Source of the DNA: a virus
Length of the DNA stretch: 64,000 nucleotides
Direction: 5' to 3' (one strand)
Virus record (IMG/VR): IMGVR_UViG_3300012078_000004
Span: 1,788-65,787 of that record
Shown here: piece by piece, positions 15,049-64,000 of the stretch
Layout: each line of letters starts with the position of its first letter
How positions within the stretch are numbered: the first letter of the stretch is position 1
Translations under genes and position numbers: made by a program
The notes under the pieces: generated by a model
What the model was told of the DNA's origin: nothing
Databases searched by the model: none
The model's input: only the letters and a program-made list of their open reading frames with translations

Positions 15049-16757
15049 GCCACGTCCGATTCGTCGTAGATGGAGCCGCCTGACTCCGTGCTGTGGAGCA
15101 TTGCGCGCCCAATAGCCATCAGGAGTGCAACTGCGCCGTCGATTTTTGATTGGTTATCGCCTTTGGTCGGGCGAACTCTGTCATCGCTACCGGGGACAAA
15201 CGCCCCTATCACGTTGCTGATACACCACTTCAGGATTGGATTACCGTCGTGATGGAATCGCCCCCCAGCCAGCGCCGCTTCCAGCTCCATCATTGGCGGA
15301 GACATATTGGTAAAGTCTTGGCGGATTTCTATTGGCTCAAACCCATTGTCGGCTAACTCATGCGATAACGCCGTCGCCCCGCTCGGGTCGATAGGGATAA
15401 TATTCATCCGCACACCACTTTCCTGTAGGGCCAATACACTGGCAAGAATTTCGCGATAGTCGGCTTCCGCACCATCCGTATCGATCAAGTCACCGCTATT
15501 AACCCATGCCTGGTATTTATCAGCCGCTTTGATGTGCTTCGGATCTGTTGAGTGGACGGTATCTTCTGGTACCCAGAACATAGGGCCGATGCAGTAGTAG
15601 TGCCGCTTCCCCTTAATTTCCCTGACGAACAATGGAATACCAGCGTTCAGGTCGAGTTTTTTCGCCAAATCCAACGCAAATATGCATTCATCCTGCCGGA
15701 AATCCTCAAACCGAAGGCTCTTGTCTTCAGCTGCTTTCCAGTGCTCCATGCTGAAGAACGCCGACGCTGCCGACACCCACATATTGAGGTGCTTGGTTTT
15801 TATTGCGTTAGTCTGACGCGGAACAGTGCGAGCGGTTTCCAGCTTTTTAACCAGATACTCGTAGCCAACCGATACACTTATGTTCGGGTTAGCCTTGATC
15901 AAGTTCGTAGGATCTTGCCAGTCGTCGCCGGGGTCCAGCTCGTAAATCATGCCGAAGATATGATCACCCGGCAGAATTCCGTCCAGTACCTCCTTCACCT
16001 CTTTATCCTTGTCGTAACAAGGTGAGGCGAGGTTGCTACCAGCAGTGGTGATAATAACGGTCAAAGGCTGGCTACGTGCGCCCATACCCGTTGTCATCGT
16101 CTGATATAGGGTGTCTGTCGAGTGTTCGTGATATTCGTCAATGATGGCGCACGACGGGGAGTCACCATCCCCAGGGTCGCCTACTACCGGGGCAAATATC
16201 GAACCATCCTCTCGGGTCAGCTTGTCGACCCAGACTTCTACACCAAAGTGCGAACGCAAGTTCGGCAGCATTCTGGCCATGTGGCGCGCTGGCGTGAAAA
16301 CCTTTTTGGCCTGACGCATTTGCGTAGCGCCGCAGTAGACCTCGGCTCCGTTCTCACCATCAGCACAGAACATATATATTCCAATGCCCGCAGCAAAAAA
16401 CGATTTACCATTTTTACGAGCAACTCGAATATATGCTTCAGTAAAACGGCGCTTTTTATCCTTCTTTCTCAACCAACCAAATATGCATGAGAAGATAAAT
16501 AGCTGCCACGGCTCTGCCTTGAGCTTTTGCCCTTTCAAATCGCCGCTGGAATGGGGGAGCAACTGCACAAAACGGCACGCACGTTCAGCCTTCTCTCGAT
16601 CAAACCGAAACGGGTAATCCTTATCGTTGATGCTCTTTTGCAGATCATCAATGTGGCGGTGGCACGCCATTTTGACGTAATTGCACGCCAGAATTTTCCC
16701 GCTGATGACGTCGCGCGCGTACTGCATCGCCGCGTTCACGTTTGGATATGTCGCCAT
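15042..16757 (-). CDS. terL: Terminase large subunit
   Basis: VARKNGKS Walker A, IIDEYHEH Walker B, KIDGAVA nuclease motif. Confidence 0.96.
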   Translation of the reverse strand: MATYPNVNAAMQYARDVISGKILACNYVKMACHRHIDDLQKSINDKDYPFRFDREKAERACRFVQLLPHSSGDLKGQKLKAEPWQLFIFSCIFGWLRKKDKKRRFTEAYIRVARKNGKSFFAAGIGIYMFCADGENGAEVYCGATQMRQAKKVFTPARHMARMLPNLRSHFGVEVWVDKLTREDGSIFAPVVGDPGDGDSPSCAIIDEYHEHSTDTLYQTMTTGMGARSQPLTVIITTAGSNLASPCYDKDKEVKEVLDGILPGDHIFGMIYELDPGDDWQDPTNLIKANPNISVSVGYEYLVKKLETARTVPRQTNAIKTKHLNMWVSAASAFFSMEHWKAAEDKSLRFEDFRQDECIFALDLAKKLDLNAGIPLFVREIKGKRHYYCIGPMFWVPEDTVHSTDPKHIKAADKYQAWVNSGDLIDTDGAEADYREILASVLALQESGVRMNIIPIDPSGATALSHELADNGFEPIEIRQDFTNMSPPMMELEAALAGGRFHHDGNPILKWCISNVIGAFVPGSDDRVRPTKGDNQSKIDGAVALLMAIGRAMLHSTESGGSIYDESDVAC

Positions 16758-16780
16758 CAGAGGTATCCATGATCAAAAAC

Positions 16781-16796
16781 TGGGACCGCGGTCCCA
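16781..16796. promoter_or_regulatory. sopC-type palindrome 3 between terS and terL
   Basis: TGGGACCGCGGTCCCA; mirror at 62793-62808. Confidence 0.85.
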
Positions 16797-16797
16797 G

Positions 16798-17235
16798 TTA
16801 GTAGCCTGCAAATTCGTTTCCTTTCTCTTCGTCGTTCGCCCCGCTGCCAGCACGCCGAACTCGGCTGGTCGGGTCCAGCCGCAGGACGACGCTGAGTCGG
16901 ATCAGTTGTGAGATGCACTTGTCGCGAGTCTTTATTGCTGCGGACAGCTTCGCGCCGCCGGCGGCAGTTTCATCTGACATGCCATCGTTTTTAATTTCCT
17001 GATTGGCGTCATACAGGATTTGGATTGTGTTGCAGTACTCCATCAGGAGAAAACAATCCTGCATTGCAAAATTACCGCTATCGACCAATATCTTGCACGT
17101 CCGCTTCCACGCATCGACCGCCATTTCCCCCATCAACTCGTCTGGCGGAGAAACTGCGCGAGTCAGCGTCTTTGTTTGAACCCCCGAGTTCACTGGTTTT
17201 GCGCCGGCACCCGGCGAGCGAATCCCTGCCGACAT
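16798..17235 (-). CDS. terS: Terminase small subunit, P27 family
   Basis: PPDELMGEMA...YCNT...LRLDPTSRVR. Confidence 0.88.
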   Translation of the reverse strand: MSAGIRSPGAGAKPVNSGVQTKTLTRAVSPPDELMGEMAVDAWKRTCKILVDSGNFAMQDCFLLMEYCNTIQILYDANQEIKNDGMSDETAAGGAKLSAAIKTRDKCISQLIRLSVVLRLDPTSRVRRAGSGANDEEKGNEFAGY

Positions 17236-17249
17236 CGCAGCACCTCAGA

Positions 17250-17400
17250 TGTTAAAAATGTTCGAAAAAAAAATTCTTATTACACGCGCGTAAAAATCTA
17301 CCTGAAGCGGCAGTCCCGGCGATCGAAAGGGGTTTGGGATTTGATCCCCCCTACCCCCTGAGAGCATTGGCTCAGACGCTCTGGGAGCGCCTGTGGCGAT
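17250..17400 (-). other. Candidate cos/packaging region
   Basis: Non-coding-looking stretch just upstream of terS with GGGGGTAGGGGGG and T-rich runs; HNH plus P27 terS imply cos packaging; cut site not determinable. Confidence 0.5.
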
Positions 17401-17407
17401 GCCATCA

Positions 17408-17587
17408 TCAGTTTGCTGCCAGCTCTGCGCCCAGCAGTGCGAGCGCGATATGCGCCTCACCGTTCGGATGCGCGGCCAACAATTCTCTAATGCTTGCCAC
17501 GCATTTCTTGACGGACTCCTGCGTTTCTGCAGGCAAATCAGCGATAGTGCCTTTGACTAGTAGCAAGGTTGCTTGTTCTTCAGTCAT
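17408..17587 (-). CDS. Hypothetical protein
   Basis: ORF from ATG 17587 (MTEEQ). Confidence 0.5.
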   Translation of the reverse strand: MTEEQATLLLVKGTIADLPAETQESVKKCVASIRELLAAHPNGEAHIALALLGAELAAN

Positions 17588-17636
17588 AACTTCGATCCCT
17601 TTACTCTTACCTGTTTCGTGATCAAAAAAGGTCGCC

Positions 17637-17870
17637 TTAGCGACCTTGGTAGTGATATTCGTAATGCCACGCGTGCGGCGATGTATCGACTCGTTCAAGC
17701 TTATAGACAAGCAAATACACCTTCCTGTTCGGATTTTCGTCCGATACAGGCTTCGTTAAAGGCTCAAGCTTAGGATGCATGTTGAGGTATGGCATCGGGG
17801 GGCTCTGGTTATCGCCATCAACACGAATCCATTCGCCATCATATTGACCGCCTACAAGCATGATATCCAT
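17637..17870 (-). CDS. Hypothetical protein
   Basis: SD GAGG; GGQYDGE N-terminus. Confidence 0.55.
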   Translation of the reverse strand: MDIMLVGGQYDGEWIRVDGDNQSPPMPYLNMHPKLEPLTKPVSDENPNRKVYLLVYKLERVDTSPHAWHYEYHYQGR

Positions 17871-17892
17871 GTACTACCTCGCCTCAGTCTCT

Positions 17893-18273
17893 CTATTGCG
17901 ACTTATTATTCAGGGTCTGTAGCCAGCCTTCAACCTTGTCTGTGTTGTGTGCTGCCATCATGTGGGGGTTGGCGTACTGGCGAACCATCATGTCAGCCCC
18001 ATAGATTAGCCTCATGGTTTCAGTAGCGAAACCCCAAGAATCACCAGTGCAATGCCAACCATCAAGGTACGCTACCCGGTGGATGACCACGTTGATTTCA
18101 ACATCAACCATTCTGATGAACCAATCCGGTGCTCCCTGCTCCTTGGCCTTCAAGCGCCAGTATGCCAACGTCTTCAACCTTGGGCTGCTTTTAATCTGTT
18201 CCGCATAGGACAACGCAATATCAATGCTTTGTTCTTTCGTCAGAGGTACGGCCAGATCTCTTAACCCTCTCAT
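17893..18273 (-). CDS. Hypothetical protein
   Basis: ATGA overlap with HNH stop. Confidence 0.6.
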   Translation of the reverse strand: MRGLRDLAVPLTKEQSIDIALSYAEQIKSSPRLKTLAYWRLKAKEQGAPDWFIRMVDVEINVVIHRVAYLDGWHCTGDSWGFATETMRLIYGADMMVRQYANPHMMAAHNTDKVEGWLQTLNNKSQ

Positions 18274-18635
18274 CGCCTAAACCTCTCCGTCGCAGTCTTC
18301 GCCCTGTGACACGGAGCGCACAGCGACTCAAGGTTGTCGTCTGCATCAGTCCCGCCGTGGGCTTTCGGTATGATGTGGTCGACATGTGTCGCCACGGTTC
18401 CAATGCCCTTTCTCTTACATGCCTGGCATACGTAGTTATCACGCTGCAGGATACGAGGGCGGCGGATGTCCCACTGTCGGCCATAGCCTCGCTCATGCCG
18501 AGACTTGCCGCCTGTATGCCTCTGCCAACCGTCGCCGGCGTGCTGCTCACGATGCTGGTCGCAATACCCAGATCGGTCATTGGTTAATGCCGCGCAGCCT
18601 GTATGGCGGCACGGTCTCTTTGTTCGTGGAGGCAT
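18270..18635 (-). CDS. HNH endonuclease (terminase-associated, HK97 gp74-like)
   Basis: MPPRTKRPCR; CQAC, VDHIIP, NLESLCAPCH. Confidence 0.92.
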   Translation of the reverse strand: MPPRTKRPCRHTGCAALTNDRSGYCDQHREQHAGDGWQRHTGGKSRHERGYGRQWDIRRPRILQRDNYVCQACKRKGIGTVATHVDHIIPKAHGGTDADDNLESLCAPCHRAKTATERFRR

Positions 18636-18821
18636 AGTAATCTCTGGTGTTGTCCGCTCTCTCGCGGGGTCACGCCGCTTCTTCCACCACGGCTGACGTT
18701 GCCGGCTTGATCCAGTTGCCACTGAGGTGTTGCCCGTTACTGACTCAACCAGCGCGCTCTGCATAAAGGAGCGATGCGTCTCTGCTAACGCTGACGGCGG
18801 CGACGGACGGCGCTTGATAGA

Positions 18822-19172
18822 TCAGGCGCCCCTGAGTTCTGGGTAGTTTTTATCGGATAACGTTGTGATTACATGGGTTAGCCGAGCGTTGCTATCACTG
18901 ACTTTTTCGGATAGGCCGTTGACCTCTTGAGCGATATGGTTCAGGCATTGAAGCACCTGATCATCAACTTTCACACCGAGGCTAACCGTCATTTGGCCAG
19001 CTTCATTTTGGCCACGCAATTTTGCGAATGCTGACTTCACCGCTTCAGCTGCCAAGTCGGCGGCAGTTTTATATCGGTCCGGTGACGTGCTGGCACATGC
19101 CTCAATCAGCAGCTTGGATAACGTTTCTTCTTCGATGCTGACCGACGATAGCGCCGTCATTTGGTTTTCCAT
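18822..19172 (-). CDS. Hypothetical protein
   Basis: 116 aa with SD GGAGA. Confidence 0.6.
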   Translation of the reverse strand: MENQMTALSSVSIEEETLSKLLIEACASTSPDRYKTAADLAAEAVKSAFAKLRGQNEAGQMTVSLGVKVDDQVLQCLNHIAQEVNGLSEKVSDSNARLTHVITTLSDKNYPELRGA

Positions 19173-19189
19173 GATGTCTCCGTTAATTA

Positions 19190-19516
19190 TCAGGCGAGCA
19201 GCTCGGCATAGCCGGCCATGTCTGCGCTAGGGATGTTCAGGACTGAAAACGTCTTCAGTCCCAGCTTGTAGGCATAGTGATACTCAGCCGTAGCACCCGG
19301 TGACGCCTTCCACCCAGGGAGCAGCAGAACACCATCAGCAGCCCGAACCATGGCAAAGCAAATGTCCATGTATTCGCCTTGGGTCAGACCAGACGGCAGA
19401 GTTGCCGGGTTGAGAACGACATGCCCGCGGGCTGTCAGGCGCGCGGCTTCTTTGTTGAAGGCATCACGATTGAAGTTCTCATGCCCGGTCATCGGGCCTG
19501 CAATATAGACCTTCAT
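19190..19516 (-). CDS. DUF4406-like protein
   Basis: MKVYIAGPMTG...VLNPA...YMDIC...LLPGWKASPGATAEY. Confidence 0.85.
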   Translation of the reverse strand: MKVYIAGPMTGHENFNRDAFNKEAARLTARGHVVLNPATLPSGLTQGEYMDICFAMVRAADGVLLLPGWKASPGATAEYHYAYKLGLKTFSVLNIPSADMAGYAELLA

Positions 19517-19782
19517 TCTGCCGCCCCTTTGATCGGACCAGTAAGCACAAACCCAGCCAACGGCACATAGCTCGGGTTTAACTTCTTTCGCAACCATTGA
19601 TACGGCAACAGCAGCCATTCAACAGCATCCATGCTCCATTCCGGAACCCAGTTACGTACAGCAACGTCCGGGGCGGCCGGATTACGCATGTTGATGTAAA
19701 CCGGCACCACGCCGCAAAATAGGGCTTGATGGGTGTACATCTCAGTAATTTGCTCGTTGCTGAGCCGCTTAAAAATAGCCAT
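19513..19782 (-). CDS. Hypothetical protein
   Basis: Coupled to downstream gene by ATGA overlap. Confidence 0.6.
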   Translation of the reverse strand: MAIFKRLSNEQITEMYTHQALFCGVVPVYINMRNPAAPDVAVRNWVPEWSMDAVEWLLLPYQWLRKKLNPSYVPLAGFVLTGPIKGAAE

Positions 19783-19788
19783 CTACTC

Positions 19789-20004
19789 TCACTCTTTTTG
19801 AGCAATGCAACCCTGCTCCAGCGCCGCCATGTAACCGGTCAGCTGTGACATGTCTGCATTTGAAATAACGAAATATCCATCCACCTGAGCTGAATCACTC
19901 AGGACCGGCCTTATCGCTGCGCATGGCTCTGGCATCGGTATCGCCGGTGACTTCCCGCACGCGACCAAAGCGGCGCAGGTAATCAGCAGGATTATTCCGC
20001 GCAT
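19789..20004 (-). CDS. Lipoprotein, putative o-spanin
   Basis: Lipobox LVAC, Pro-rich linker, last gene of lysis block. Confidence 0.65.
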   Translation of the reverse strand: MRGIILLITCAALVACGKSPAIPMPEPCAAIRPVLSDSAQVDGYFVISNADMSQLTGYMAALEQGCIAQKE

Positions 20005-20101
20005 AATCAATCCTGCGCTGGCGTTCATCGGCCTCATGCGCCCTTACGCCCCGGATTATCAATTCCAGGGCTATCGCGACTATTCTCAATACGGCTTCCA
20101 C
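19895..20101 (-). CDS. Putative i-spanin-like protein
   Basis: GTG start with SD GAGGGG; hydrophobic N-terminus; overlaps lipoprotein gene. Confidence 0.45.
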   Translation of the reverse strand: MEAVLRIVAIALELIIRGVRAHEADERQRRIDYARNNPADYLRRFGRVREVTGDTDARAMRSDKAGPE

Positions 20102-20483
20102 GAATTTTCCCCTCTGCTTTGGCCGTTTCCACGATCTCACGGAATTTGTCATCGCTGGGACCACGGTCCCAATCGTCACGATCTCCGGCGGGAGCCGGTG
20201 GCACGTTCCGCGCGTGCTTGTAGTTCGCTGCCACCAAATCCAGCAGCTTCATCAAAATCGTCGGGATTCGGTCAGTAATGCGAGGCGGTAACACCGCCCG
20301 CAGCTGCGCCAGCGCATACAGCACGCCCGTAATAACCCCCAACCACGCCGCAAACCCCGGCGGAAGTGCGCTGATAACATCAGCCAGATCGGTGCTCACT
20401 TCGGCGCGGGCTGGGTCCATAACGACGACCAGCAGACCGAATACGCTGACCAGCGTCAGCCATCCTTTGAACATCGCCTTCAT
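20034..20483 (-). CDS. Membrane protein of lysis block
   Basis: Signal-like N-terminus (ARA|E) plus second TM. Confidence 0.6.
   Translation of the reverse strand: MKAMFKGWLTLVSVFGLLVVVMDPARAEVSTDLADVISALPPGFAAWLGVITGVLYALAQLRAVLPPRITDRIPTILMKLLDLVAANYKHARNVPPAPAGDRDDWDRGPSDDKFREIVETAKAEGKIRGSRIENSRDSPGIDNPGRKGA
20156..20171. promoter_or_regulatory. sopC-type palindrome 4 (intragenic)
   Basis: TGGGACCACGGTCCCA, identical to recalled F sopC core. Confidence 0.85.
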
Positions 20484-20484
20484 A

Positions 20485-21003
20485 TCAACCCCCTGCGCCG
20501 AGGCGGCGCTCTTCGGCGAACAGCGCGTCCACATCGCTGCGTTGGCATTTTTCGAGGTAATCTGCTGGCGTGCCTTTGCCAGCAACCGTGTTGTAATACT
20601 GCTTCCAATAGCTGGCGCGGCCTTCTCGCGTAGCCGGGATAACTGTTGGCACTGCCATATAGCGCAGGCGGCAGAACACCATCGCCATCAACGGTGATGT
20701 CCTCAATTCCTGATACACGGTTCGAGATAAGTCGATGCCGAATTCCTTCAGCAAGCGGCTGGCCAACGCCGTGCCCTTGTATTTATCGCGTAACCATTCA
20801 AAGGTGCCTTGATCGACTTGCGTGAGGCCCGTTCCGGCGCTGGTTGGCGTAGGGTCTTTGTAATCCCCCAAAAGCGTCTCAGCTGCTGCTGTCTCAACAA
20901 GCAGCGCTACAGTGCTCTCAGGGTTTTTCCCACCGCCAAGCACGTCACAGGCCGCACGGGCATAGCTAATCGCGTCAATCTTGTTGACGAGTCCGTAATT
21001 CAT
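20485..21003 (-). CDS. Putative endolysin, lysozyme/transglycosylase-like
   Basis: ETAAAET...GLTQVD...YWKQYYNT; directly after holin. Confidence 0.65.
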   Translation of the reverse strand: MNYGLVNKIDAISYARAACDVLGGGKNPESTVALLVETAAAETLLGDYKDPTPTSAGTGLTQVDQGTFEWLRDKYKGTALASRLLKEFGIDLSRTVYQELRTSPLMAMVFCRLRYMAVPTVIPATREGRASYWKQYYNTVAGKGTPADYLEKCQRSDVDALFAEERRLGAGG

Positions 21004-21308
21004 TTCTTTCTCCCGCCGAAGATCCGGCTTAGATTTCGTTTTGCAAAGCCGGTGATGACTTCGGCGGCGTGTGGCCATGCCACTGCCGACAGCCCGGATA
21101 GGACGATCACCTGCGTTATTGAGAACTGGCCCATCAGGCCAAAGGTCCAGAGCGTGATCGCTACGATGACGCCGCGAAGAACATCACCAGTCACGCGCCG
21201 CAAGTTGAGCGGGTCGCTGGAAAGTAGGGCGCTCGAGATAACACCTGCAACGAGCATCAGCAAAACCAGCCAGAGGTCTGGATTTCCGTATTCAATTACC
21301 GTCGTCAT
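21000..21308 (-). CDS. Putative holin
   Basis: 102 aa, three hydrophobic segments, basic C-terminus GGRKK. Confidence 0.7.
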   Translation of the reverse strand: MTTVIEYGNPDLWLVLLMLVAGVISSALLSSDPLNLRRVTGDVLRGVIVAITLWTFGLMGQFSITQVIVLSGLSAVAWPHAAEVITGFAKRNLSRIFGGRKK

Positions 21309-21339
21309 AGCTCCGCCTGCAGCCTCAGCCCGGCGGGCC

Positions 21340-21365
21340 AAAAAAAAGCCCCGGAGACCGGGGCT
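21340..21365 (-). terminator. Terminator after MTase
   Basis: AGCCCCGG-TCT-CCGGGGCT plus T tract. Confidence 0.85.
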
Positions 21366-21371
21366 ACATGA

Positions 21372-56178: not shown

Positions 56179-57155
56179 AGGGCCTCCTTAACCATCGAGT
56201 TAATGATAACAAATCAGATAAAAAACACAACACAAATGTTATTAAAAATAACTTAAAAGTTGCGATATAAAGCTAGCATTGGGCCGGCACCAGAGTTAAA
56301 GTTCTTGTCGTAGCGGGACGCCACCCGCATTTAACTTAATAAAAAGACAGGAGTTATTATGAACTACGCAGGTTTTGAAGAGGTCAGGAAGGACGTAGCT
56401 GAGTTTTCAAACGAGATGTGTGAAATGCACCTCAAATTGCGCGCCCTGAGCCAAAAATATCACTGGAACAGCGAACAACTGGTCGAGCGGTTGGCAGGGC
56501 AAATATTGAGCGACGTGCAAGAGCAGTTTGCCAAGTTATATTCCAGAATCAACGAATTAGACCATACTTTCAAAGATTGATTATAAGCCGCCTACGGGCG
56601 GCTATTTTGACAGCGGGACGCCACCCGCGAAACAGCAGGAGTTGCAATGAATTTTAAACAGCTAAGCGCCGGTATGACCGAACAGGCACTCTGTATTTTG
56701 ATGGCTATAGCCCCGTCTGCCGATGGGGAGAAGGTTGTCGATATTGCTGACAGTCTGGGAATGGGAGATCCAGAGGTTGAGTTTATTCTGCAGCAGTTTG
56801 TCGAGTTCAATATAGCAACGAAGAATGGCTGGGGCCGCTATGCACTGACACCTGAATATAGGGCCTATAAACGGGGGACGAATTTAGGGCTGCAGATGGA
56901 TTGGGACCATGGTCCCAATTTAACGCTTGATAAAAAATGAATAAAAAGGTACTGTTTCATTAAGTTGGCAATTTTGTAAGCCGACATATCGCAACCGCCC
57001 ACAAGGCGGTTTTTTTGTGCCTGTAGAATGGGCGCTGCGGCCACGGTTGGACGTGGCCACAGCATTCGACCCATGCCGCTAAACATGGCGAACCGAGGCC
57101 CATTGCTGATTGCGCAACAGCGGTGGAAGCCTACCAAAATACGGCTCGAAACACC

Positions 57156-58217
57156 ATGAAAAACACTGTAGAAATAAACAGTGCGAAATTAGTACACGCG
57201 GATTCCCTGCAATATATCAAAACCCTGCCAGACAACTGCATTGACGCCATCATTACTGATCCGCCCTATTACCGCGTTAAGACAAACGGCTGGGACAATC
57301 AGTGGTCGTCCACTATTGAATTTTTGGCGTGGCTGGACGAGTTCTTCGCTGAATTTTGGCGGGTGCTGAAGCCAAGCGGCTCGCTGTATCTGTTTTGTGG
57401 GCCGAAACTTTCAGCTGATACAGAAATACTGATGCGCGCCCGCTTCAACGTGCTGAACCACATCGTGTGGGCGAAACCAAGCGGGCGATGGAATGGGGCA
57501 AACAAAGAATCATTCCGCCAGTATTTCCCCGCGACCGAGCACGTTCTCTTTGCTGAGCACTATGGTGCGGACGGCTTTGCGAAAGGATCGACGGGCTATG
57601 CATCAAAGTGCCAAGAACTGAAACAGCAGGTATTCGCGCCGCTGATTGAATATTTCAGGTCAGCGCGCCAGCGGCTGGGCATTTCAGCGAAAGAAATCAA
57701 TGAGGTCACAGGCACAAAAATGTGTAGCCATTGGTTTAGCGCGAGCCAATGGCAGTTGCCGAGCGAAACCCAGTACGCGGCTCTTCAAAAGCTGTTTAAT
57801 CGTCGTGCCGATGAATTGGGTAGCACCGGGCTGGCCAGCGACCACGCCTCATTAGCTCGTGAATATGCTGGGCTTTCAGAGGAGTACGGTGGCTTGCTAC
57901 GGCAGTACGACGATCTGCGGGGTGAGTATGAGAGCCTTCGGCGACCGTTCAACGTGACTAAGGCGGTACCGCACACGAACGTTTGGACGTACCCGCCGGT
58001 TCAGTTCTACCCAGGGAAACATCCGTGCGAAAAGCCGTTGGCTATGATGCTCGACATCATCAACGCCAGCACGCGCCCCGGCGATCTTGTCGCGGACTTC
58101 TTTATGGGGTCGGGTGCCACGCTAAAAGCGGCGGAAATGCTGGGTCGGCGGTCGCTCGGCGTCGAATTAGAGGAAGAGCGGTTCTTGCAAACTGCCGATG
58201 AAATAAGGCGTCTTTAA
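57156..58217 (+). CDS. DNA methyltransferase (mirror copy)
   Basis: Mirror of 21372-22433. Confidence 0.9.
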   Translation: MKNTVEINSAKLVHADSLQYIKTLPDNCIDAIITDPPYYRVKTNGWDNQWSSTIEFLAWLDEFFAEFWRVLKPSGSLYLFCGPKLSADTEILMRARFNVLNHIVWAKPSGRWNGANKESFRQYFPATEHVLFAEHYGADGFAKGSTGYASKCQELKQQVFAPLIEYFRSARQRLGISAKEINEVTGTKMCSHWFSASQWQLPSETQYAALQKLFNRRADELGSTGLASDHASLAREYAGLSEEYGGLLRQYDDLRGEYESLRRPFNVTKAVPHTNVWTYPPVQFYPGKHPCEKPLAMMLDIINASTRPGDLVADFFMGSGATLKAAEMLGRRSLGVELEEERFLQTADEIRRL

Positions 58218-58280
58218 TCATGTAGCCCCGGTCTCCGGGGCTTTTTTTTGGCCCGCCGGGCTGAGGCTGCAGGCGGAGCT

Positions 58281-58589
58281 ATGACGACGGTAATTGAATA
58301 CGGAAATCCAGACCTCTGGCTGGTTTTGCTGATGCTCGTTGCAGGTGTTATCTCGAGCGCCCTACTTTCCAGCGACCCGCTCAACTTGCGGCGCGTGACT
58401 GGTGATGTTCTTCGCGGCGTCATCGTAGCGATCACGCTCTGGACCTTTGGCCTGATGGGCCAGTTCTCAATAACGCAGGTGATCGTCCTATCCGGGCTGT
58501 CGGCAGTGGCATGGCCACACGCCGCCGAAGTCATCACCGGCTTTGCAAAACGAAATCTAAGCCGGATCTTCGGCGGGAGAAAGAAATGA
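58281..58589 (+). CDS. Putative holin (mirror copy)
   Basis: Mirror of 21000-21308. Confidence 0.7.
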   Translation: MTTVIEYGNPDLWLVLLMLVAGVISSALLSSDPLNLRRVTGDVLRGVIVAITLWTFGLMGQFSITQVIVLSGLSAVAWPHAAEVITGFAKRNLSRIFGGRKK

Positions 58590-59104
58590 ATTACGGACTC
58601 GTCAACAAGATTGACGCGATTAGCTATGCCCGTGCGGCCTGTGACGTGCTTGGCGGTGGGAAAAACCCTGAGAGCACTGTAGCGCTGCTTGTTGAGACAG
58701 CAGCAGCTGAGACGCTTTTGGGGGATTACAAAGACCCTACGCCAACCAGCGCCGGAACGGGCCTCACGCAAGTCGATCAAGGCACCTTTGAATGGTTACG
58801 CGATAAATACAAGGGCACGGCGTTGGCCAGCCGCTTGCTGAAGGAATTCGGCATCGACTTATCTCGAACCGTGTATCAGGAATTGAGGACATCACCGTTG
58901 ATGGCGATGGTGTTCTGCCGCCTGCGCTATATGGCAGTGCCAACAGTTATCCCGGCTACGCGAGAAGGCCGCGCCAGCTATTGGAAGCAGTATTACAACA
59001 CGGTTGCTGGCAAAGGCACGCCAGCAGATTACCTCGAAAAATGCCAACGCAGCGATGTGGACGCGCTGTTCGCCGAAGAGCGCCGCCTCGGCGCAGGGGG
59101 TTGA
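58586..59104 (+). CDS. Putative endolysin (mirror copy)
   Basis: Mirror of 20485-21003. Confidence 0.65.
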   Translation: MNYGLVNKIDAISYARAACDVLGGGKNPESTVALLVETAAAETLLGDYKDPTPTSAGTGLTQVDQGTFEWLRDKYKGTALASRLLKEFGIDLSRTVYQELRTSPLMAMVFCRLRYMAVPTVIPATREGRASYWKQYYNTVAGKGTPADYLEKCQRSDVDALFAEERRLGAGG

Positions 59105-60953
59105 TATGAAGGCGATGTTCAAAGGATGGCTGACGCTGGTCAGCGTATTCGGTCTGCTGGTCGTCGTTATGGACCCAGCCCGCGCCGAAGTGAGCACCGA
59201 TCTGGCTGATGTTATCAGCGCACTTCCGCCGGGGTTTGCGGCGTGGTTGGGGGTTATTACGGGCGTGCTGTATGCGCTGGCGCAGCTGCGGGCGGTGTTA
59301 CCGCCTCGCATTACTGACCGAATCCCGACGATTTTGATGAAGCTGCTGGATTTGGTGGCAGCGAACTACAAGCACGCGCGGAACGTGCCACCGGCTCCCG
59401 CCGGAGATCGTGACGATTGGGACCGTGGTCCCAGCGATGACAAATTCCGTGAGATCGTGGAAACGGCCAAAGCAGAGGGGAAAATTCGTGGAAGCCGTAT
59501 TGAGAATAGTCGCGATAGCCCTGGAATTGATAATCCGGGGCGTAAGGGCGCATGAGGCCGATGAACGCCAGCGCAGGATTGATTATGCGCGGAATAATCC
59601 TGCTGATTACCTGCGCCGCTTTGGTCGCGTGCGGGAAGTCACCGGCGATACCGATGCCAGAGCCATGCGCAGCGATAAGGCCGGTCCTGAGTGATTCAGC
59701 TCAGGTGGATGGATATTTCGTTATTTCAAATGCAGACATGTCACAGCTGACCGGTTACATGGCGGCGCTGGAGCAGGGTTGCATTGCTCAAAAAGAGTGA
59801 GAGTAGATGGCTATTTTTAAGCGGCTCAGCAACGAGCAAATTACTGAGATGTACACCCATCAAGCCCTATTTTGCGGCGTGGTGCCGGTTTACATCAACA
59901 TGCGTAATCCGGCCGCCCCGGACGTTGCTGTACGTAACTGGGTTCCGGAATGGAGCATGGATGCTGTTGAATGGCTGCTGTTGCCGTATCAATGGTTGCG
60001 AAAGAAGTTAAACCCGAGCTATGTGCCGTTGGCTGGGTTTGTGCTTACTGGTCCGATCAAAGGGGCGGCAGAATGAAGGTCTATATTGCAGGCCCGATGA
60101 CCGGGCATGAGAACTTCAATCGTGATGCCTTCAACAAAGAAGCCGCGCGCCTGACAGCCCGCGGGCATGTCGTTCTCAACCCGGCAACTCTGCCGTCTGG
60201 TCTGACCCAAGGCGAATACATGGACATTTGCTTTGCCATGGTTCGGGCTGCTGATGGTGTTCTGCTGCTCCCTGGGTGGAAGGCGTCACCGGGTGCTACG
60301 GCTGAGTATCACTATGCCTACAAGCTGGGACTGAAGACGTTTTCAGTCCTGAACATCCCTAGCGCAGACATGGCCGGCTATGCCGAGCTGCTCGCCTGAT
60401 AATTAACGGAGACATCATGGAAAACCAAATGACGGCGCTATCGTCGGTCAGCATCGAAGAAGAAACGTTATCCAAGCTGCTGATTGAGGCATGTGCCAGC
60501 ACGTCACCGGACCGATATAAAACTGCCGCCGACTTGGCAGCTGAAGCGGTGAAGTCAGCATTCGCAAAATTGCGTGGCCAAAATGAAGCTGGCCAAATGA
60601 CGGTTAGCCTCGGTGTGAAAGTTGATGATCAGGTGCTTCAATGCCTGAACCATATCGCTCAAGAGGTCAACGGCCTATCCGAAAAAGTCAGTGATAGCAA
60701 CGCTCGGCTAACCCATGTAATCACAACGTTATCCGATAAAAACTACCCAGAACTCAGGGGCGCCTGATCTATCAAGCGCCGTCCGTCGCCGCCGTCAGCG
60801 TTAGCAGAGACGCATCGCTCCTTTATGCAGAGCGCGCTGGTTGAGTCAGTAACGGGCAACACCTCAGTGGCAACTGGATCAAGCCGGCAACGTCAGCCGT
60901 GGTGGAAGAAGCGGCGTGACCCCGCGAGAGAGCGGACAACACCAGAGATTACT

Positions 60954-61319
60954 ATGCCTCCACGAACAAAGAGACCGTGCCGCCATACAGGCTGCGCGGC
61001 ATTAACCAATGACCGATCTGGGTATTGCGACCAGCATCGTGAGCAGCACGCCGGCGACGGTTGGCAGAGGCATACAGGCGGCAAGTCTCGGCATGAGCGA
61101 GGCTATGGCCGACAGTGGGACATCCGCCGCCCTCGTATCCTGCAGCGTGATAACTACGTATGCCAGGCATGTAAGAGAAAGGGCATTGGAACCGTGGCGA
61201 CACATGTCGACCACATCATACCGAAAGCCCACGGCGGGACTGATGCAGACGACAACCTTGAGTCGCTGTGCGCTCCGTGTCACAGGGCGAAGACTGCGAC
61301 GGAGAGGTTTAGGCGATGA
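60954..61319 (+). CDS. HNH endonuclease (mirror copy)
   Basis: Mirror of 18270-18635. Confidence 0.9.
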   Translation: MPPRTKRPCRHTGCAALTNDRSGYCDQHREQHAGDGWQRHTGGKSRHERGYGRQWDIRRPRILQRDNYVCQACKRKGIGTVATHVDHIIPKAHGGTDADDNLESLCAPCHRAKTATERFRR

Positions 61320-62353
61320 GAGGGTTAAGAGATCTGGCCGTACCTCTGACGAAAGAACAAAGCATTGATATTGCGTTGTCCTATGCGGAACAGATTAAAA
61401 GCAGCCCAAGGTTGAAGACGTTGGCATACTGGCGCTTGAAGGCCAAGGAGCAGGGAGCACCGGATTGGTTCATCAGAATGGTTGATGTTGAAATCAACGT
61501 GGTCATCCACCGGGTAGCGTACCTTGATGGTTGGCATTGCACTGGTGATTCTTGGGGTTTCGCTACTGAAACCATGAGGCTAATCTATGGGGCTGACATG
61601 ATGGTTCGCCAGTACGCCAACCCCCACATGATGGCAGCACACAACACAGACAAGGTTGAAGGCTGGCTACAGACCCTGAATAATAAGTCGCAATAGAGAG
61701 ACTGAGGCGAGGTAGTACATGGATATCATGCTTGTAGGCGGTCAATATGATGGCGAATGGATTCGTGTTGATGGCGATAACCAGAGCCCCCCGATGCCAT
61801 ACCTCAACATGCATCCTAAGCTTGAGCCTTTAACGAAGCCTGTATCGGACGAAAATCCGAACAGGAAGGTGTATTTGCTTGTCTATAAGCTTGAACGAGT
61901 CGATACATCGCCGCACGCGTGGCATTACGAATATCACTACCAAGGTCGCTAAGGCGACCTTTTTTGATCACGAAACAGGTAAGAGTAAAGGGATCGAAGT
62001 TATGACTGAAGAACAAGCAACCTTGCTACTAGTCAAAGGCACTATCGCTGATTTGCCTGCAGAAACGCAGGAGTCCGTCAAGAAATGCGTGGCAAGCATT
62101 AGAGAATTGTTGGCCGCGCATCCGAACGGTGAGGCGCATATCGCGCTCGCACTGCTGGGCGCAGAGCTGGCAGCAAACTGATGATGGCATCGCCACAGGC
62201 GCTCCCAGAGCGTCTGAGCCAATGCTCTCAGGGGGTAGGGGGGATCAAATCCCAAACCCCTTTCGATCGCCGGGACTGCCGCTTCAGGTAGATTTTTACG
62301 CGCGTGTAATAAGAATTTTTTTTTCGAACATTTTTAACATCTGAGGTGCTGCG

Positions 62354-62791
62354 ATGTCGGCAGGGATTCGCTCGCCGGGTGCCGGCGCAAAACCAGTGAA
62401 CTCGGGGGTTCAAACAAAGACGCTGACTCGCGCAGTTTCTCCGCCAGACGAGTTGATGGGGGAAATGGCGGTCGATGCGTGGAAGCGGACGTGCAAGATA
62501 TTGGTCGATAGCGGTAATTTTGCAATGCAGGATTGTTTTCTCCTGATGGAGTACTGCAACACAATCCAAATCCTGTATGACGCCAATCAGGAAATTAAAA
62601 ACGATGGCATGTCAGATGAAACTGCCGCCGGCGGCGCGAAGCTGTCCGCAGCAATAAAGACTCGCGACAAGTGCATCTCACAACTGATCCGACTCAGCGT
62701 CGTCCTGCGGCTGGACCCGACCAGCCGAGTTCGGCGTGCTGGCAGCGGGGCGAACGACGAAGAGAAAGGAAACGAATTTGCAGGCTACTAA
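62354..62791 (+). CDS. terS: Terminase small subunit (mirror copy)
   Basis: Mirror of 16798-17235. Confidence 0.87.
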   Translation: MSAGIRSPGAGAKPVNSGVQTKTLTRAVSPPDELMGEMAVDAWKRTCKILVDSGNFAMQDCFLLMEYCNTIQILYDANQEIKNDGMSDETAAGGAKLSAAIKTRDKCISQLIRLSVVLRLDPTSRVRRAGSGANDEEKGNEFAGY

Positions 62792-62831
62792 CTGGGACCG
62801 CGGTCCCAGTTTTTGATCATGGATACCTCTG

Positions 62832-64000
62832 ATGGCGACATATCCAAACGTGAACGCGGCGATGCAGTACGCGCGCGACGTCATCAGCGGGAAAATTCTG
62901 GCGTGCAATTACGTCAAAATGGCGTGCCACCGCCACATTGATGATCTGCAAAAGAGCATCAACGATAAGGATTACCCGTTTCGGTTTGATCGAGAGAAGG
63001 CTGAACGTGCGTGCCGTTTTGTGCAGTTGCTCCCCCATTCCAGCGGCGATTTGAAAGGGCAAAAGCTCAAGGCAGAGCCGTGGCAGCTATTTATCTTCTC
63101 ATGCATATTTGGTTGGTTGAGAAAGAAGGATAAAAAGCGCCGTTTTACTGAAGCATATATTCGAGTTGCTCGTAAAAATGGTAAATCGTTTTTTGCTGCG
63201 GGCATTGGAATATATATGTTCTGTGCTGATGGTGAGAACGGAGCCGAGGTCTACTGCGGCGCTACGCAAATGCGTCAGGCCAAAAAGGTTTTCACGCCAG
63301 CGCGCCACATGGCCAGAATGCTGCCGAACTTGCGTTCGCACTTTGGTGTAGAAGTCTGGGTCGACAAGCTGACCCGAGAGGATGGTTCGATATTTGCCCC
63401 GGTAGTAGGCGACCCTGGGGATGGTGACTCCCCGTCGTGCGCCATCATTGACGAATATCACGAACACTCGACAGACACCCTATATCAGACGATGACAACG
63501 GGTATGGGCGCACGTAGCCAGCCTTTGACCGTTATTATCACCACTGCTGGTAGCAACCTCGCCTCACCTTGTTACGACAAGGATAAAGAGGTGAAGGAGG
63601 TACTGGACGGAATTCTGCCGGGTGATCATATCTTCGGCATGATTTACGAGCTGGACCCCGGCGACGACTGGCAAGATCCTACGAACTTGATCAAGGCTAA
63701 CCCGAACATAAGTGTATCGGTTGGCTACGAGTATCTGGTTAAAAAGCTGGAAACCGCTCGCACTGTTCCGCGTCAGACTAACGCAATAAAAACCAAGCAC
63801 CTCAATATGTGGGTGTCGGCAGCGTCGGCGTTCTTCAGCATGGAGCACTGGAAAGCAGCTGAAGACAAGAGCCTTCGGTTTGAGGATTTCCGGCAGGATG
63901 AATGCATATTTGCGTTGGATTTGGCGAAAAAACTCGACCTGAACGCTGGTATTCCATTGTTCGTCAGGGAAATTAAGGGGAAGCGGCACTACTACTGCAT
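62832..64000 (+). CDS. terL: Terminase large subunit (mirror copy, truncated by window end)
   Basis: Mirror of part of 15042-16757. Confidence 0.93.
   Translation, partial: MATYPNVNAAMQYARDVISGKILACNYVKMACHRHIDDLQKSINDKDYPFRFDREKAERACRFVQLLPHSSGDLKGQKLKAEPWQLFIFSCIFGWLRKKDKKRRFTEAYIRVARKNGKSFFAAGIGIYMFCADGENGAEVYCGATQMRQAKKVFTPARHMARMLPNLRSHFGVEVWVDKLTREDGSIFAPVVGDPGDGDSPSCAIIDEYHEHSTDTLYQTMTTGMGARSQPLTVIITTAGSNLASPCYDKDKEVKEVLDGILPGDHIFGMIYELDPGDDWQDPTNLIKANPNISVSVGYEYLVKKLETARTVPRQTNAIKTKHLNMWVSAASAFFSMEHWKAAEDKSLRFEDFRQDECIFALDLAKKLDLNAGIPLFVREIKGKRHYYC

What the first reader, a model, noticed from the sequence alone, without database searches (positions are those of the whole stretch)
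15589..64000. Whole sequence folds back at a protelomerase site: hairpin-ended linear phage-plasmid
Seen: inverted duplication of 24.2 kb centred on ACGC|GCGT, about 210 bp from the protelomerase start; no differences found where checked. Known: N15-group prophages are linear plasmids with covalently closed ends and replicate through head-to-head dimers with telL-telL junctions. Inference: either the reads or assembler ran round the hairpin, or a dimer intermediate was captured. The real element is one copy, probably a new member with HK97-type head, distinct lysis genes and an N15-like telomere.
Basis: partly seen in the sequence, partly recalled or inferred. Interest (0 to 1): 0.8.

Follow-up and report, generated by a model that had tools for sequence, protein, structure and literature searches.

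The report
Assembly fold-back at phage hairpin telomere
The 83-kb contig is a perfect mirror image of itself because the assembler walked round the closed hairpin end of a linear N15/PY54-type phage-plasmid (probably of Serratia) and back along the same DNA, so the duplication is an artefact that pinpoints a real telomere of an otherwise ordinary new member of a known phage group.

Summary
The whole 83,162-bp contig equals its own reverse complement: two arms of 41,581 bp with no mismatch. The centre lies between window bases 39794 and 39795.

The centre is the dyad of a tel site, CCAATTATACGC|GCGTATAATTGG. It shares an 18-bp core with the N15 and phiKO2 telRL sites and lies 209 bp upstream of a complete TelK/TelN-type protelomerase gene.

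The outer contig ends are not a second telomere. They fall in a near-repeat inside the lambda-J-like tail-tip gene.

A near-identical single-copy contig of 51,975 bp from another assembly starts 30 nt past this tip and ends 60 nt past a second, closely similar tip (telR). The real unit is therefore about 51.9 kb with two hairpin ends.

Contigs from other public runs show the same site in three states: as a contig end, as a small 406-nt fold-back, and joined to the telR arm (intact telRL).

The same doubling occurs in RefSeq "circular" plasmids. One Salmonella record has two mirror centres exactly one unit length apart. At least five IMG/VR contigs are doubled too.

Verdict: this is an assembly fold-back at a real telL hairpin. 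The element is a new species-level relative of PY54, phiKO2 and N15. A captured replication dimer is unlikely but not excluded, because no raw reads were available. Interest is low to moderate.

The parts
1..39794 (-). Left arm of the palindromic contig. This is one copy of the phage-plasmid, running from the telL tip at 39794 outward, with genes mostly on the minus strand. It continues 1,787 bp beyond the window start to the contig end.
   Evidence: Whole contig equals its reverse complement.
39795..64000 (+). Right arm. This is the exact reverse-complement copy of window 15589-39794. It continues beyond the window to contig base 83162.
   Evidence: 0 mismatches in 24,206 mirrored positions; whole contig checked.
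39771..39818 (.). telL|telL fold-back junction, equal to the replicated-telomere form of the tel site. The 24-bp core CCAATTATACGC|GCGTATAATTGG lies at 39783-39806 and is flanked by CACAATAG / CTATTGTG.
   Evidence: Aligned with N15 telRL (annotated cut at 24802/3), phiKO2 telRL and a Salmonella plasmid; the 18-bp core ATTATACGCGCGTATAAT is identical in all. Contigs of other assemblies end or fold back exactly here.
40004..41887 (+). Protelomerase (telomere resolvase), 627 aa. The mirror copy is at 37702-39585 on the minus strand.
   Evidence: Pfam TelK_N, TelK_muzzle, ResT-TelK_cat and TelK_stirrup, all above cut-off. TelK structure 2V6E matched at E=2.9e-198 over residues 3-536. The catalytic blocks SGRRxIEI, GQAKKR, RAIYARI, LGHDD and LHYKQFKL are conserved.
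41959..42330 (-). DUF5448 protein, 123 aa, in the same position as in the Salmonella plasmid relatives; phiKO2 also encodes a DUF5448 protein between tel and repA. Mirror copy at 37259-37630 on the plus strand.
   Evidence: Pfam PF17526; DUF5448 genes between tel and repA in relatives.
42670..46683 (-). RepA-type replication protein, 1337 aa at the longest start. Mirror copy at 32906-36919 on the plus strand.
   Evidence: NCBIfam NF042913 CyRepA1, 237.5 bits against a cut-off of 200. About 71% nucleotide identity to PY54/P840 repA.
46911..47558 (-). CI/CB-like prophage repressor (HTH_3 domain plus a weak S24-like C-terminal domain). Mirror copy at 32031-32678 on the plus strand.
   Evidence: Pfam; lies under the 'prophage repressor' annotation of PY54/P840.
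48475..49161 (+). Q-type antiterminator. Mirror copy at 30428-31114 on the minus strand.
   Evidence: Pfam PF06323, 123 bits.
49681..50634 (+). RdgC-like protein. Mirror copy at 28955-29908 on the minus strand.
   Evidence: Pfam PF04381; the same gene is present in the Salmonella relatives.
21372..22466 (-). DNA methyltransferase, 364 aa. Mirror copy at 57123-58217 on the plus strand.
   Evidence: PHROG 67, E=1e-90.
19789..21341 (-). Putative lysis cassette of five overlapping small ORFs: the first (113 aa) and third (183 aa) have hydrophobic stretches, the second is 197 aa, and the last (82 aa) has a lipobox-like N-terminus. No known family was recognised. Mirror copy at about 58248-59800 on the plus strand.
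   Evidence: ORFs and translations. No Pfam or NCBIfam hit. The 197-aa ORF hits only PHROG 3108, of unknown function. The lysis function is inferred, not shown.
18270..18764 (-). HNH endonuclease upstream of the terminase genes. Mirror copy at 60825-61319 on the plus strand.
   Evidence: PHROG 144, E=8e-41.
15042..17235 (-). Terminase small subunit (16798-17235) and large subunit (15042-16757).
   Evidence: PHROG 83 and PHROG 9, the latter at E=3.5e-171.
11149..14851 (-). HK97-type head module: portal (13589-14851), S49 maturation protease (12502-13419) and major capsid protein (11149-12453).
   Evidence: PHROGs 12, 53 and 10. Pfam Phage_portal, Peptidase_S49 and Phage_capsid PF05065. 68-69% nucleotide identity to the PY54, P840 and phiKO2 head modules.
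2109..10559 (-). Head-tail connector genes and a lambda-like siphovirus tail module. It comprises Ad1, Hc1, tail terminator, Neck1, major tail protein (8580-9047), chaperone (8186-8518), tape measure (4979-8002), and M-, L-, K- and I-like proteins.
   Evidence: PHROG hits; Pfam labels of the identical genes on the sibling contig.
1783..2076 (-). hok/gef-family toxin ORF between the I-like and J-like tail genes.
   Evidence: PHROG 251 'MokW-like host killing', E=1.7e-19. Pfam HOK_GEF on the identical gene of the sibling contig.
1..1672 (-). 5' part of the J-like central tail fibre gene. It runs off the window, and the contig ends inside it at codon 1153, within a ~150-nt internal near-repeat.
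   Evidence: PHROG 31, E=1e-222. The contig end coincides with a repeat that recurs at 91-96% identity in the J genes of the sibling contigs, which are 1581 and 1758 aa long.

Best explanation
The element is a temperate siphovirus of the N15/PY54/phiKO2 'telomere phage' group. As a prophage it lives as a linear plasmid of about 51.9 kb with covalently closed hairpin ends, made by its own protelomerase at a telRL site. In the sequenced sample the DNA was in this hairpin-ended form. Once denatured, the two strands of a hairpin end form one continuous strand, so some reads run through the telL tip from one strand into the other. These reads give the assembly graph a path that leaves the arm, turns at the tip and re-enters the same arm in reverse complement. 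The assembler followed that path in both directions until it met the same graph branch, a near-repeat in the J tail-tip gene. It then emitted a contig that is an exact palindrome of 2 x 41,581 bp. The duplication is therefore not part of the molecule. The centre marks the telL tip to the base, and the real genome is one arm plus about 10.3 kb more: the rest of J, the tail fibres, sopBA, a Bro-N gene, a second hok and telR. Shown here: the palindrome, the protelomerase, the tel-site homology, the single-copy sibling contig with two tips, and the recurrence of the doubling in other assemblies. Inferred: the physical hairpin, and that read-through rather than a dimer supplied the junction reads.
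For: (1) The contig is a perfect whole-contig palindrome with the centre at its exact midpoint and both ends at the same place in J. That place is a near-repeat whose copy number differs between relatives, which is a typical graph branch.
(2) The centre is the dyad of a tel site that shares the 18-bp core ATTATACGC|GCGTATAAT with N15 (annotated cut at 24802/3), phiKO2 and a Salmonella plasmid. It lies 209 bp upstream of the tel gene; the same distance is 140-194 bp in the relatives measured.
(3) The protelomerase is complete. It has four TelK domains, matches 2V6E at E=2.9e-198, and keeps the catalytic blocks including the Tyr aligned with TelK Y425.
(4) Contig k141_72547 from assembly ERZ27241879 (51,975 bp) is 99.7-100% identical to this arm over the three stretches fetched. 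It is single-copy, starts 30 nt past the telL tip, and ends 60 nt past a second tip with the same 12-nt half-core. SopA and SopB equivalogs lie near that end.
(5) Logan contigs of four runs were laid on the centre. In X1 the arm contig stops 4 nt before the centre. In X2 a 406-nt contig is itself a perfect fold-back, at depth 3.4 against 19.5 for the arm, so the last ~200 nt are under-represented as expected at a physical end. In X4, a relative 95-99% identical, two contigs each end 12-15 nt past the core. In X3 the contig crosses from the telL arm into the telR arm, which is the uncut telRL.
(6) The same doubling occurs in other assemblies of this phage group. NZ_CP082957.1 (99,702 bp, 'circular') has a telL|telL centre and a telR|telR centre exactly 49,855 bp apart, which is the length of its single-copy counterpart NZ_CP117191.1. 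NZ_CP082016.1 (107,713 bp) has two head-to-head tel genes. In IMG/VR, four contigs are mirrored around a tel site at their midpoint, one carries tel at both ends, and 13 end in fold-back stubs of 9-52 nt.
(7) Palindromic contigs are a reported short-read assembly error (PMC9455707). Long reads that continue round a hairpin into the other strand are documented for protelomerase-bearing replicons (PMC13293297).
Against: No raw reads of the source sample could be examined, because all runs offered were stored as contigs. Read-pair geometry and a true depth profile at the centre are therefore unknown. Junction words of the telL|telL type are also produced by a replicated, not yet resolved telomere, so their mere presence does not tell hairpin read-through from a dimer. 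The depth argument rests on one run and on per-contig mean depths, which the tool itself warns are crude. The assembler and library type of the source metagenome are unknown.
Confidence: 0.88

Rival explanations
1. A real head-to-head (telL-telL) dimer, the replication intermediate of N15-type plasmids, was abundant in the sample, for example during induction or lytic replication or when protelomerase was limiting. It supplied the junction reads, so the contig would reflect a physical duplex.
For: After replication of the ends, N15-type plasmids carry a duplicated palindromic site at each telomere, which TelN then cleaves. Unresolved dimers accumulate when TelN is insufficient (PMC2847241). 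The junction sequence expected from such a dimer is identical to the one observed. Run X3 shows that forms other than the hairpin (uncut telRL) exist in some samples.
Against: The element carries an intact tel gene and an intact site, so junctions should be short-lived. In X1 the arm contig stops before the centre. In X2 the terminal ~200 nt have about one sixth of the arm's depth, which suggests a physical end in most molecules. The near-identical sibling contig is single-copy with stubs at both tips. A de Bruijn assembler collapses the two arms of a dimer anyway, so the doubled output is a path artefact whichever molecule supplied the junction reads. The identical outcome in many unrelated assemblies, including one with both centres exactly one unit apart, fits read-through of hairpins.
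Confidence: 0.08
2. The fold-back is a random library or amplification chimera, such as an inverted chimera from multiple-displacement amplification, or an assembler error unrelated to any telomere.
For: Palindromic contigs do arise as general assembly errors (PMC9455707).
Against: The centre coincides to the base with the dyad of a conserved tel site beside the tel gene. Independent assemblies end or fold back at exactly the same base. A random chimera would have no reason to fall there.
Confidence: 0.02
3. The inverted duplication is a stable feature of a larger real replicon, for example a giant palindromic plasmid or very long terminal inverted repeats.
For: Nothing beyond the contig itself.
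Against: The near-identical element is single-copy at 51.9 kb, and related capsid-bearing contigs cluster at about 51 kb. An uncut perfect tel palindrome beside an intact tel gene should be resolved. There are no flanking chromosomal genes or att sites.
Confidence: 0.02

Closest known systems
Yersinia telomere phages PY54 and vB_YenS-P840
   Same: They are the best nucleotide matches. The tel-repA-cI-cro region covers 65-70% of the 8-kb query at about 71% identity. The terminase and HK97-type head module covers 86% at about 68% identity. The overall plan is the same: tel next to telRL, RepA, a cI/cro/Q immunity region and a siphovirus tail (PMC10612081).
   Different: The protelomerase is only 48% identical in protein. 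The tel core differs: PY54 has CATACTACGC|GCGTAGTATG, this element CCAATTATACGC|GCGTATAATTGG. No record in the plasmid collection was found by megablast. The host is probably Serratia, not Yersinia.
Escherichia phage N15 (Ravinvirus N15) with TelN and telRL
   Same: TelN is 53% identical. The 18-bp tel core ATTATACGCGCGTATAAT and the flanking CACAAT/ATTGTG repeats are shared, and the dyad matches the annotated N15 cut site. SopAB lies next to telR and tel next to telL. The hairpin resolution and replication cycle is the same (PMC2847241).
   Different: Nucleotide similarity is limited to parts of tel and repA, 22% of the query at 68% identity. N15 did not appear among the twelve best nucleotide matches to the head module, whereas PY54, P840 and phiKO2 did. 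From my own knowledge, not tested here, N15 head genes are lambda-like rather than HK97-like.
Klebsiella phage phiKO2 and its protelomerase TelK (PDB 2V6E)
   Same: TelK aligns over residues 3-536 at E=2.9e-198, with all four structural domains and the active-site Tyr. The head module is 69% identical in nucleotides over 73% of the query. The tel core is shared.
   Different: Protein identity is 51%. phiKO2 carries an antirepressor operon between tel and repA that is absent here.
Doubled public assemblies of N15-type linear plasmids (NZ_CP082957.1 Salmonella, NZ_CP082016.1 Klebsiella, IMG/VR UViGs 2667527966_000002, 2703718687_000004, 3300045988_113976, 2609459977_000002 and 2791355284_000001)
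   Same: They show the same artefact: mirror-image arms meeting at the tel dyad with two head-to-head tel genes. In the IMG/VR cases the centre is at the contig midpoint.
   Different: The long-read Salmonella record went round both hairpins and closed into a 'circle' of twice the unit length, with indel errors between the arms. The present contig turned only at telL, is error-free and is incomplete.

Membership tests
N15/PY54/phiKO2-type telomere phages (linear plasmid prophages with hairpin ends) | Encodes a TelN/TelK-type protelomerase | tested here: met
   Four TelK Pfam domains above cut-off. 2V6E matched at E=2.9e-198. 48-54% protein identity to PY54 Tel, N15 TelN, phiKO2 TelK and a Salmonella plasmid Tel.
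N15/PY54/phiKO2-type telomere phages (linear plasmid prophages with hairpin ends) | Palindromic telomere resolution site immediately upstream of the tel gene | tested here: met
   The dyad is 209 bp upstream of tel. The core is shared with N15, phiKO2 and the Salmonella plasmid, and the dyad matches the annotated N15 cut.
N15/PY54/phiKO2-type telomere phages (linear plasmid prophages with hairpin ends) | Prophage is physically linear with covalently closed ends at telL and telR | not testable with these tools
   There is only indirect support. A single-copy sibling contig ends in 30-nt and 60-nt fold-back stubs at two tips. In run X4 two contigs end 12-15 nt past the core, and run X2 has a 406-nt fold-back contig. 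Proof needs exonuclease, snap-back or long-read evidence.
N15/PY54/phiKO2-type telomere phages (linear plasmid prophages with hairpin ends) | Uncut telRL (telR joined to telL) exists in the phage form, whose map is circularly permuted relative to the plasmid | tested here: inconclusive
   One contig of run X3 crosses from the telL arm into 64 nt that match the telR arm of the sibling contig. This is consistent with an intact telRL. It is a single contig and the cos ends were not mapped.
N15/PY54/phiKO2-type telomere phages (linear plasmid prophages with hairpin ends) | Large multidomain RepA replication protein | tested here: met
   NCBIfam CyRepA1, 237.5 bits against a cut-off of 200. About 71% nucleotide identity to PY54 repA.
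N15/PY54/phiKO2-type telomere phages (linear plasmid prophages with hairpin ends) | SopAB-type partition system | tested here: inconclusive
   It is absent from this contig, which stops in J. SopA (747 bits, cut-off 725) and SopB/ParB (437 bits, cut-off 274) lie next to telR on the 99.7-100% identical sibling contig. It is therefore very probably part of the element but was not seen in the window's own assembly.
N15/PY54/phiKO2-type telomere phages (linear plasmid prophages with hairpin ends) | Lambdoid immunity region (repressor, cro, Q) and complete virion genes | tested here: met
   An HTH/S24-like repressor and a Q antiterminator were found. Terminase, portal, protease, HK97-type capsid, connector, tape measure and J-like tip genes are present. 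The small cro-like ORF at 47596-47769 has no family hit.
Tyrosine-recombinase-like telomere resolvases (TelK/TelN/ResT) | Catalytic domain with the conserved active-site blocks and the nucleophilic tyrosine | tested here: met
   PF16684 at 76 bits. The blocks SGRRxIEI, GQAKKR, RAIYARI, LGHDD and LHYKQFKL are identical or near-identical to N15 and phiKO2. Y426 aligns with chain residue 445 of 2V6E, which is TelK Tyr425 after the 20-residue tag. That Tyr425 is the nucleophile is from my own knowledge.
Unresolved head-to-head replication dimer | Duplex DNA continuous through the telL|telL junction at full depth, with fragments placed at random across it | not testable with these tools
   Only contigs were available. 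Where there is information, it points the other way: the X1 contig stops before the centre, and the X2 terminal contig has depth 3.4 against 19.5 for the arm.

The most novel reading that the evidence does not exclude
The sample really contained abundant telL-telL head-to-head dimers of this phage-plasmid, for example the dimer proposed as an intermediate on the way to lytic replication (my own recollection of the N15 literature, not checked here). If so, whole-contig palindromes in metagenomes would report the replication state of telomere phages in nature rather than merely an assembly quirk.
Probability: 0.07. Interest if true: 0.5.

Novelty: new member of a known kind. Interest (0 to 1): 0.3.

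Why it matters
As biology it is modest. It is a new species-level relative of PY54, phiKO2 and N15, probably from Serratia, with its telL and telR half-sites now mapped to the base.

The practical value lies in three points:

1. The 83-kb "genome" is twice too long over the part it covers and also incomplete. Size, gene counts and completeness estimates based on it are therefore wrong.
2. The same doubling sits uncorrected in public collections. At least two RefSeq or PLSDB plasmids labelled "complete, circular" and at least five IMG/VR contigs show it.
3. A contig that equals its own reverse complement is a cheap and exact signature of a hairpin telomere. Screening assemblies for whole-contig palindromes and short fold-back stubs would map telomere resolution sites, and could find hairpin-ended replicons without experiments.

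Tried and rejected
- **Second telomere at the outer ends.** I looked for a second telomere at the contig's outer ends. There is none; the ends lie in a J-gene near-repeat.
- **Raw reads.** All 24 runs offered were stored as contigs, so pair geometry and a real depth profile could not be obtained.
- **Near-identical named record.** Megablast of 24.8 kb against the plasmid collection found nothing. The representative species genomes hold only relatives with about 50% identical Tel. The host could not be named directly. The only lead is the capsid protein's 90%-identity cluster, which contains Serratia marcescens proteins.
- **Reaching the sibling record by handle.** I walked along it with three exact-protein look-ups instead.
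- **Literature on doubling of N15-type plasmids.** None of the telomere-phage papers I opened mentions it. I found only general statements on palindromic contigs and on reads running round hairpins.
- **NCBIfam model for the protelomerase.** No model matched it; Pfam and the solved structure did.
- **Rouxiella badensis pSP2 (116,582 bp).** It looked like another doubled record, but only 259 nt are mirrored before a rearrangement, so I did not count it.
- **Random chimera and real giant palindrome.** I considered both and rejected them, for the reasons given under the rival explanations.

Full report
**Observation.** The mirror symmetry is real and exact. With the centre between window bases 39794 and 39795, all 24,206 base pairs that can be compared inside the window are complementary. 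Every other centre within ten bases either side gives about 75% mismatches. The window is bases 1788-65787 of a single 83,162-bp contig. That whole contig is identical to its own reverse complement, has no N, and has the centre at its exact midpoint. The arms are therefore 41,581 bp each. The two outer ends of the contig show no resemblance to the centre and read as coding sequence.

**What lies at the centre.** The sequence is ...CACAATAGCCAATTATACGC|GCGTATAATTGGCTATTGTG.... An ORF of 627 aa starts 209 bp to the right, and in mirror image to the left.
- It carries all four Pfam domains of the phiKO2 protelomerase (TelK_N, muzzle, catalytic, stirrup), each above the curated cut-off.
- It aligns with the solved TelK structure 2V6E over residues 3-536 at E=2.9e-198.
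- It is 53% identical to N15 TelN, 51% to TelK, 48% to PY54 Tel and 87% to an IMG/VR relative.
- The active-site blocks are conserved, including the tyrosine aligned with TelK Tyr425.

I extracted the annotated telRL sites of N15 (cut annotated at 24802/3) and phiKO2, and the equivalent palindromes of PY54 and a Salmonella plasmid. The dyads coincide, and the 18-bp core ATTATACGC|GCGTATAAT is identical in N15, phiKO2, the Salmonella plasmid and this element. The CACAAT/ATTGTG flanking repeats are identical in N15, with variants in phiKO2 and the Salmonella plasmid. PY54 has a different core. In five further relatives from species genomes the dyad lies 186-194 bp upstream of tel. The centre of the giant palindrome is therefore the dyad of a real telomere resolution site, not an arbitrary point.

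**The element.** Reading outward from the tip, one arm encodes the following.
- Replication and immunity: protelomerase, a DUF5448 protein, a small ORF, a 1337-aa RepA (NCBIfam CyRepA1 above cut-off), a CI-like repressor, a small cro-like ORF, a Q antiterminator and RdgC.
- An early or accessory region with a HicB-like protein and a DNA methyltransferase.
- A group of small overlapping ORFs that look like a lysis cassette but match no Pfam or NCBIfam family.
- Packaging and head: an HNH endonuclease, small and large terminase, portal, S49 protease and an HK97-family capsid protein.
- Connector genes and a lambda-like tail: major tail protein, chaperone, tape measure, M-, L-, K- and I-like proteins, a hok/gef gene, and a J-like tip protein in which the contig ends.

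The order tel-DUF5448-ORF-RepA-repressor-cro-ORF-Q-RdgC is the same as in the Salmonella N15-type plasmids, and PY54/P840 match the same tel-repA-repressor-cro stretch. The best nucleotide matches are PY54 and vB_YenS-P840, at about 71% over the replication and immunity region and 68% over the head module, followed by phiKO2. Megablast found nothing in the plasmid collection. The capsid protein's 90%-identity cluster contains proteins that NCBI names from Serratia marcescens, on contigs of about 41-52 kb. That is the only host lead.

**The true unit.** An exact-protein look-up of the protelomerase found contig k141_72547 of assembly ERZ27241879, 51,975 bp long. Over the stretches I could fetch it is 100%, 99.7-99.9% and 100% identical to the arm. 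It starts exactly 30 nt to the left of the centre, so it holds a 30-nt fold-back stub and then the arm once. Walking along it with two further look-ups reached its other end. After J (1581 aa) come two tail-fibre genes, then sopB and sopA (NCBIfam equivalogs above cut-off), then a Bro-N gene and a second hok. The contig then ends 60 nt past a second dyad...CTCAATAACCAATTATACGC|GCGTATAATTGGTTATTGAG.... The two half-sites are identical for 12 nt from the tip and differ at three of the first 25 positions, like the imperfect telRL of N15. The unit is 51,975 - 30 - 60 = 51,885 bp with a tel tip at each end. That is what a hairpin-ended linear plasmid gives in a graph assembler. The present contig therefore lacks about 10.3 kb.

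**Why the contig ends where it does.** The last 150 nt of the arm recur at 91-96% identity further along J in the sibling contigs. Those contigs differ from each other by one repeat unit, with J of 1581 against 1758 aa. A Logan contig of another run also breaks in J, 93 nt earlier. This is a standard graph branch. A walk that leaves a seed in both directions, one of them through the hairpin, would stop at this same branch twice. That explains both the exact midpoint and the symmetric ends.

**Other datasets at the same base.** I laid the Logan contigs of four runs on window 39735-46000.

| Run | What its contigs show at the centre |
|---|---|
| X1 | The arm contig begins 4 nt to the right of the centre and does not cross it. 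|
| X2 | A separate 406-nt contig is itself a perfect fold-back (203 nt each side) at mean depth 3.4, against 19.5 for the arm contig. It is a small-scale copy of the artefact and a hint that the terminal ~200 nt are under-represented, as at a physical end. |
| X4 | In this 95-99% identical relative from an isolate, one 27.7-kb contig starts 12 nt left of the centre. A second, 21.0-kb contig shares only 39 nt around the core and then runs into unrelated sequence: two arms, each ending just past the core. |
| X3 | The arm contig crosses the centre, and its 40 unaligned letters match the telR arm of the sibling contig, ending 24 nt from that tip. With 31-nt words this requires real reads that join telL-specific to telR-specific bases, that is, an uncut telRL (phage or circular form). 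|

Across samples the same site is thus seen uncut, as an end, and folded back. That is the expected repertoire of a telomere resolution site.

**The artefact is recurrent.** The Salmonella plasmid NZ_CP082957.1 is deposited as 'circular, complete' at 99,702 bp.
- It has two head-to-head tel genes around a telL|telL centre that is perfectly mirrored for 4,587 bp, after which long-read indels shift the register.
- It has a second, telR|telR centre between two sopA genes.
- The two centres are 49,855 bp apart, exactly the length of the single-copy record NZ_CP117191.1 from a strain with nearly the same name (S499V against S499), in which telR and telL are joined.

That is the single-stranded circle of a hairpin-ended duplex read round both tips. 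Klebsiella plasmid NZ_CP082016.1 (107,713 bp) likewise has two identical head-to-head tel genes.

Among 62 IMG/VR loci encoding relatives of this protelomerase:
- four contigs are perfectly mirrored over all the flank I fetched (2.8 kb each side), with the tel dyad at the contig midpoint;
- one 92,470-bp contig has tel at both ends, so it folded back at telR;
- 13 contigs end in perfectly mirrored stubs of 9-52 nt;
- many more stop within a few bases of the tip.

Palindromic contigs are reported as short-read assembly errors (PMC9455707). Long reads that run past a hairpin into the other strand are documented for protelomerase-bearing replicons (PMC13293297).

**Hairpin read-through or captured dimer?** N15-type plasmids do pass through a replicated telomere with this same sequence, and unresolved dimers accumulate when TelN is limiting (PMC2847241). 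I could not examine raw reads, so this is not excluded. Five points argue against it as the source here.
- The tel gene and the site are both intact.
- The X1 contig stops before the centre.
- The X2 terminal contig has low depth.
- The sibling contig is single-copy with stubs at both tips.
- A graph assembler collapses the two arms of a dimer in any case, so the doubled output is a path artefact whichever molecule supplied the junction reads.

I put hairpin read-through at 0.88 and a dimer at 0.08. Random chimeras and a real giant palindrome get 0.02 each. The first is contradicted by the exact coincidence with the tel dyad, the second by the single-copy sibling.

**Comparison and novelty.** The element meets the sequence-testable criteria of the N15/PY54/phiKO2 telomere-phage group: protelomerase, an adjacent tel palindrome, RepA, lambdoid immunity genes and virion genes. 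SopAB was seen only on the sibling contig. The physical hairpin cannot be tested here. The element is closest to PY54 and P840 in gene content but has an N15/phiKO2-type tel core. The HK97-type head is shared with PY54 and phiKO2, so it is not a distinguishing trait. It is a new member of a known kind. The palindrome itself is an assembly artefact, though an informative one.

**Verdict.** Interest is low to moderate (0.3). The main use is for curation and as a screening signature for hairpin telomeres.

Noticed in passing
window 1783-2076 (-), mirror outside the window; also L006 16124-16276: A hok/gef-family toxin gene sits between the I-like and J-like tail genes (PHROG 251; Pfam HOK_GEF on the identical sibling gene). 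The sibling contig carries a second hok-family ORF near telR.
   Followed up: partly
window 1-1672 (-) and L006 2927-7672, L007 2396-7672: The J-like tail-tip gene contains internal near-repeats of ~150 nt at 91-96% identity. It varies in length between near-identical elements (1581 against 1758 aa). Three assemblies break there.
   Followed up: partly
window 19789-21341 (-): A putative lysis cassette of five overlapping small ORFs has no Pfam or NCBIfam match. The 197-aa ORF hits only PHROG 3108, of unknown function, so the endolysin may belong to an undescribed family.
   Followed up: partly
window 53788-54914 (-), mirror 24675-25801 (+): Two adjacent ORFs of 242 and 133 aa run opposite to the surrounding early genes and have no PHROG hit. 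A HicB-like protein lies nearby at 55489-55923 (-). This may be an accessory or defence island.
   Followed up: no
L012 1-75 (Erwinia tasmaniensis NZ_JBLREF010000012.1) and L020 1-40 (IMGVR_UViG_2855172416_000003): Both contigs start with Nextera adapter sequence (…AGATGTGTATAAGAGACA…) fused directly to the tel half-site, 19 nt past the tip in one and starting about 10 nt inside the arm in the other. Untrimmed adapter survives at contig ends that are real telomeres.
   Followed up: partly
L001 and L084 (NZ_CP082957.1), L019 (NZ_CP082016.1): Two plasmid records in the PLSDB copy (RefSeq accessions) labelled complete and circular are doubled N15-type linear plasmids. The Salmonella record has telL|telL and telR|telR centres exactly one unit length (49,855 bp) apart.
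   Followed up: yes
L047, L048, L066, L075/L078, L034/L035 (IMG/VR): Four IMG/VR contigs (62,207, 51,926, 56,122 and 44,156 bp) are mirrored around a tel dyad at their midpoint. One 92,470-bp contig has a tel gene at both ends. All are probably the same fold-back artefact. Only 2.8 kb either side of each centre was checked.
   Followed up: partly
L016 (Rouxiella badensis pSP2, CP114059.1, 116,582 bp): A 127-bp perfect half-palindrome lies upstream of tel. The mirrored arm matches for only about 259 nt and then jumps 2.1 kb. This may be a mis-assembled fold-back or a rearranged telomere region.
   Followed up: partly
run X3, laid on window 39771-46000: One isolate run (depth 283) holds a contig joining the telL arm to the telR arm, an uncut telRL. 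This suggests phage-form or circular DNA in that culture. It differs from the window by one base at 41200 (A to T).
   Followed up: partly
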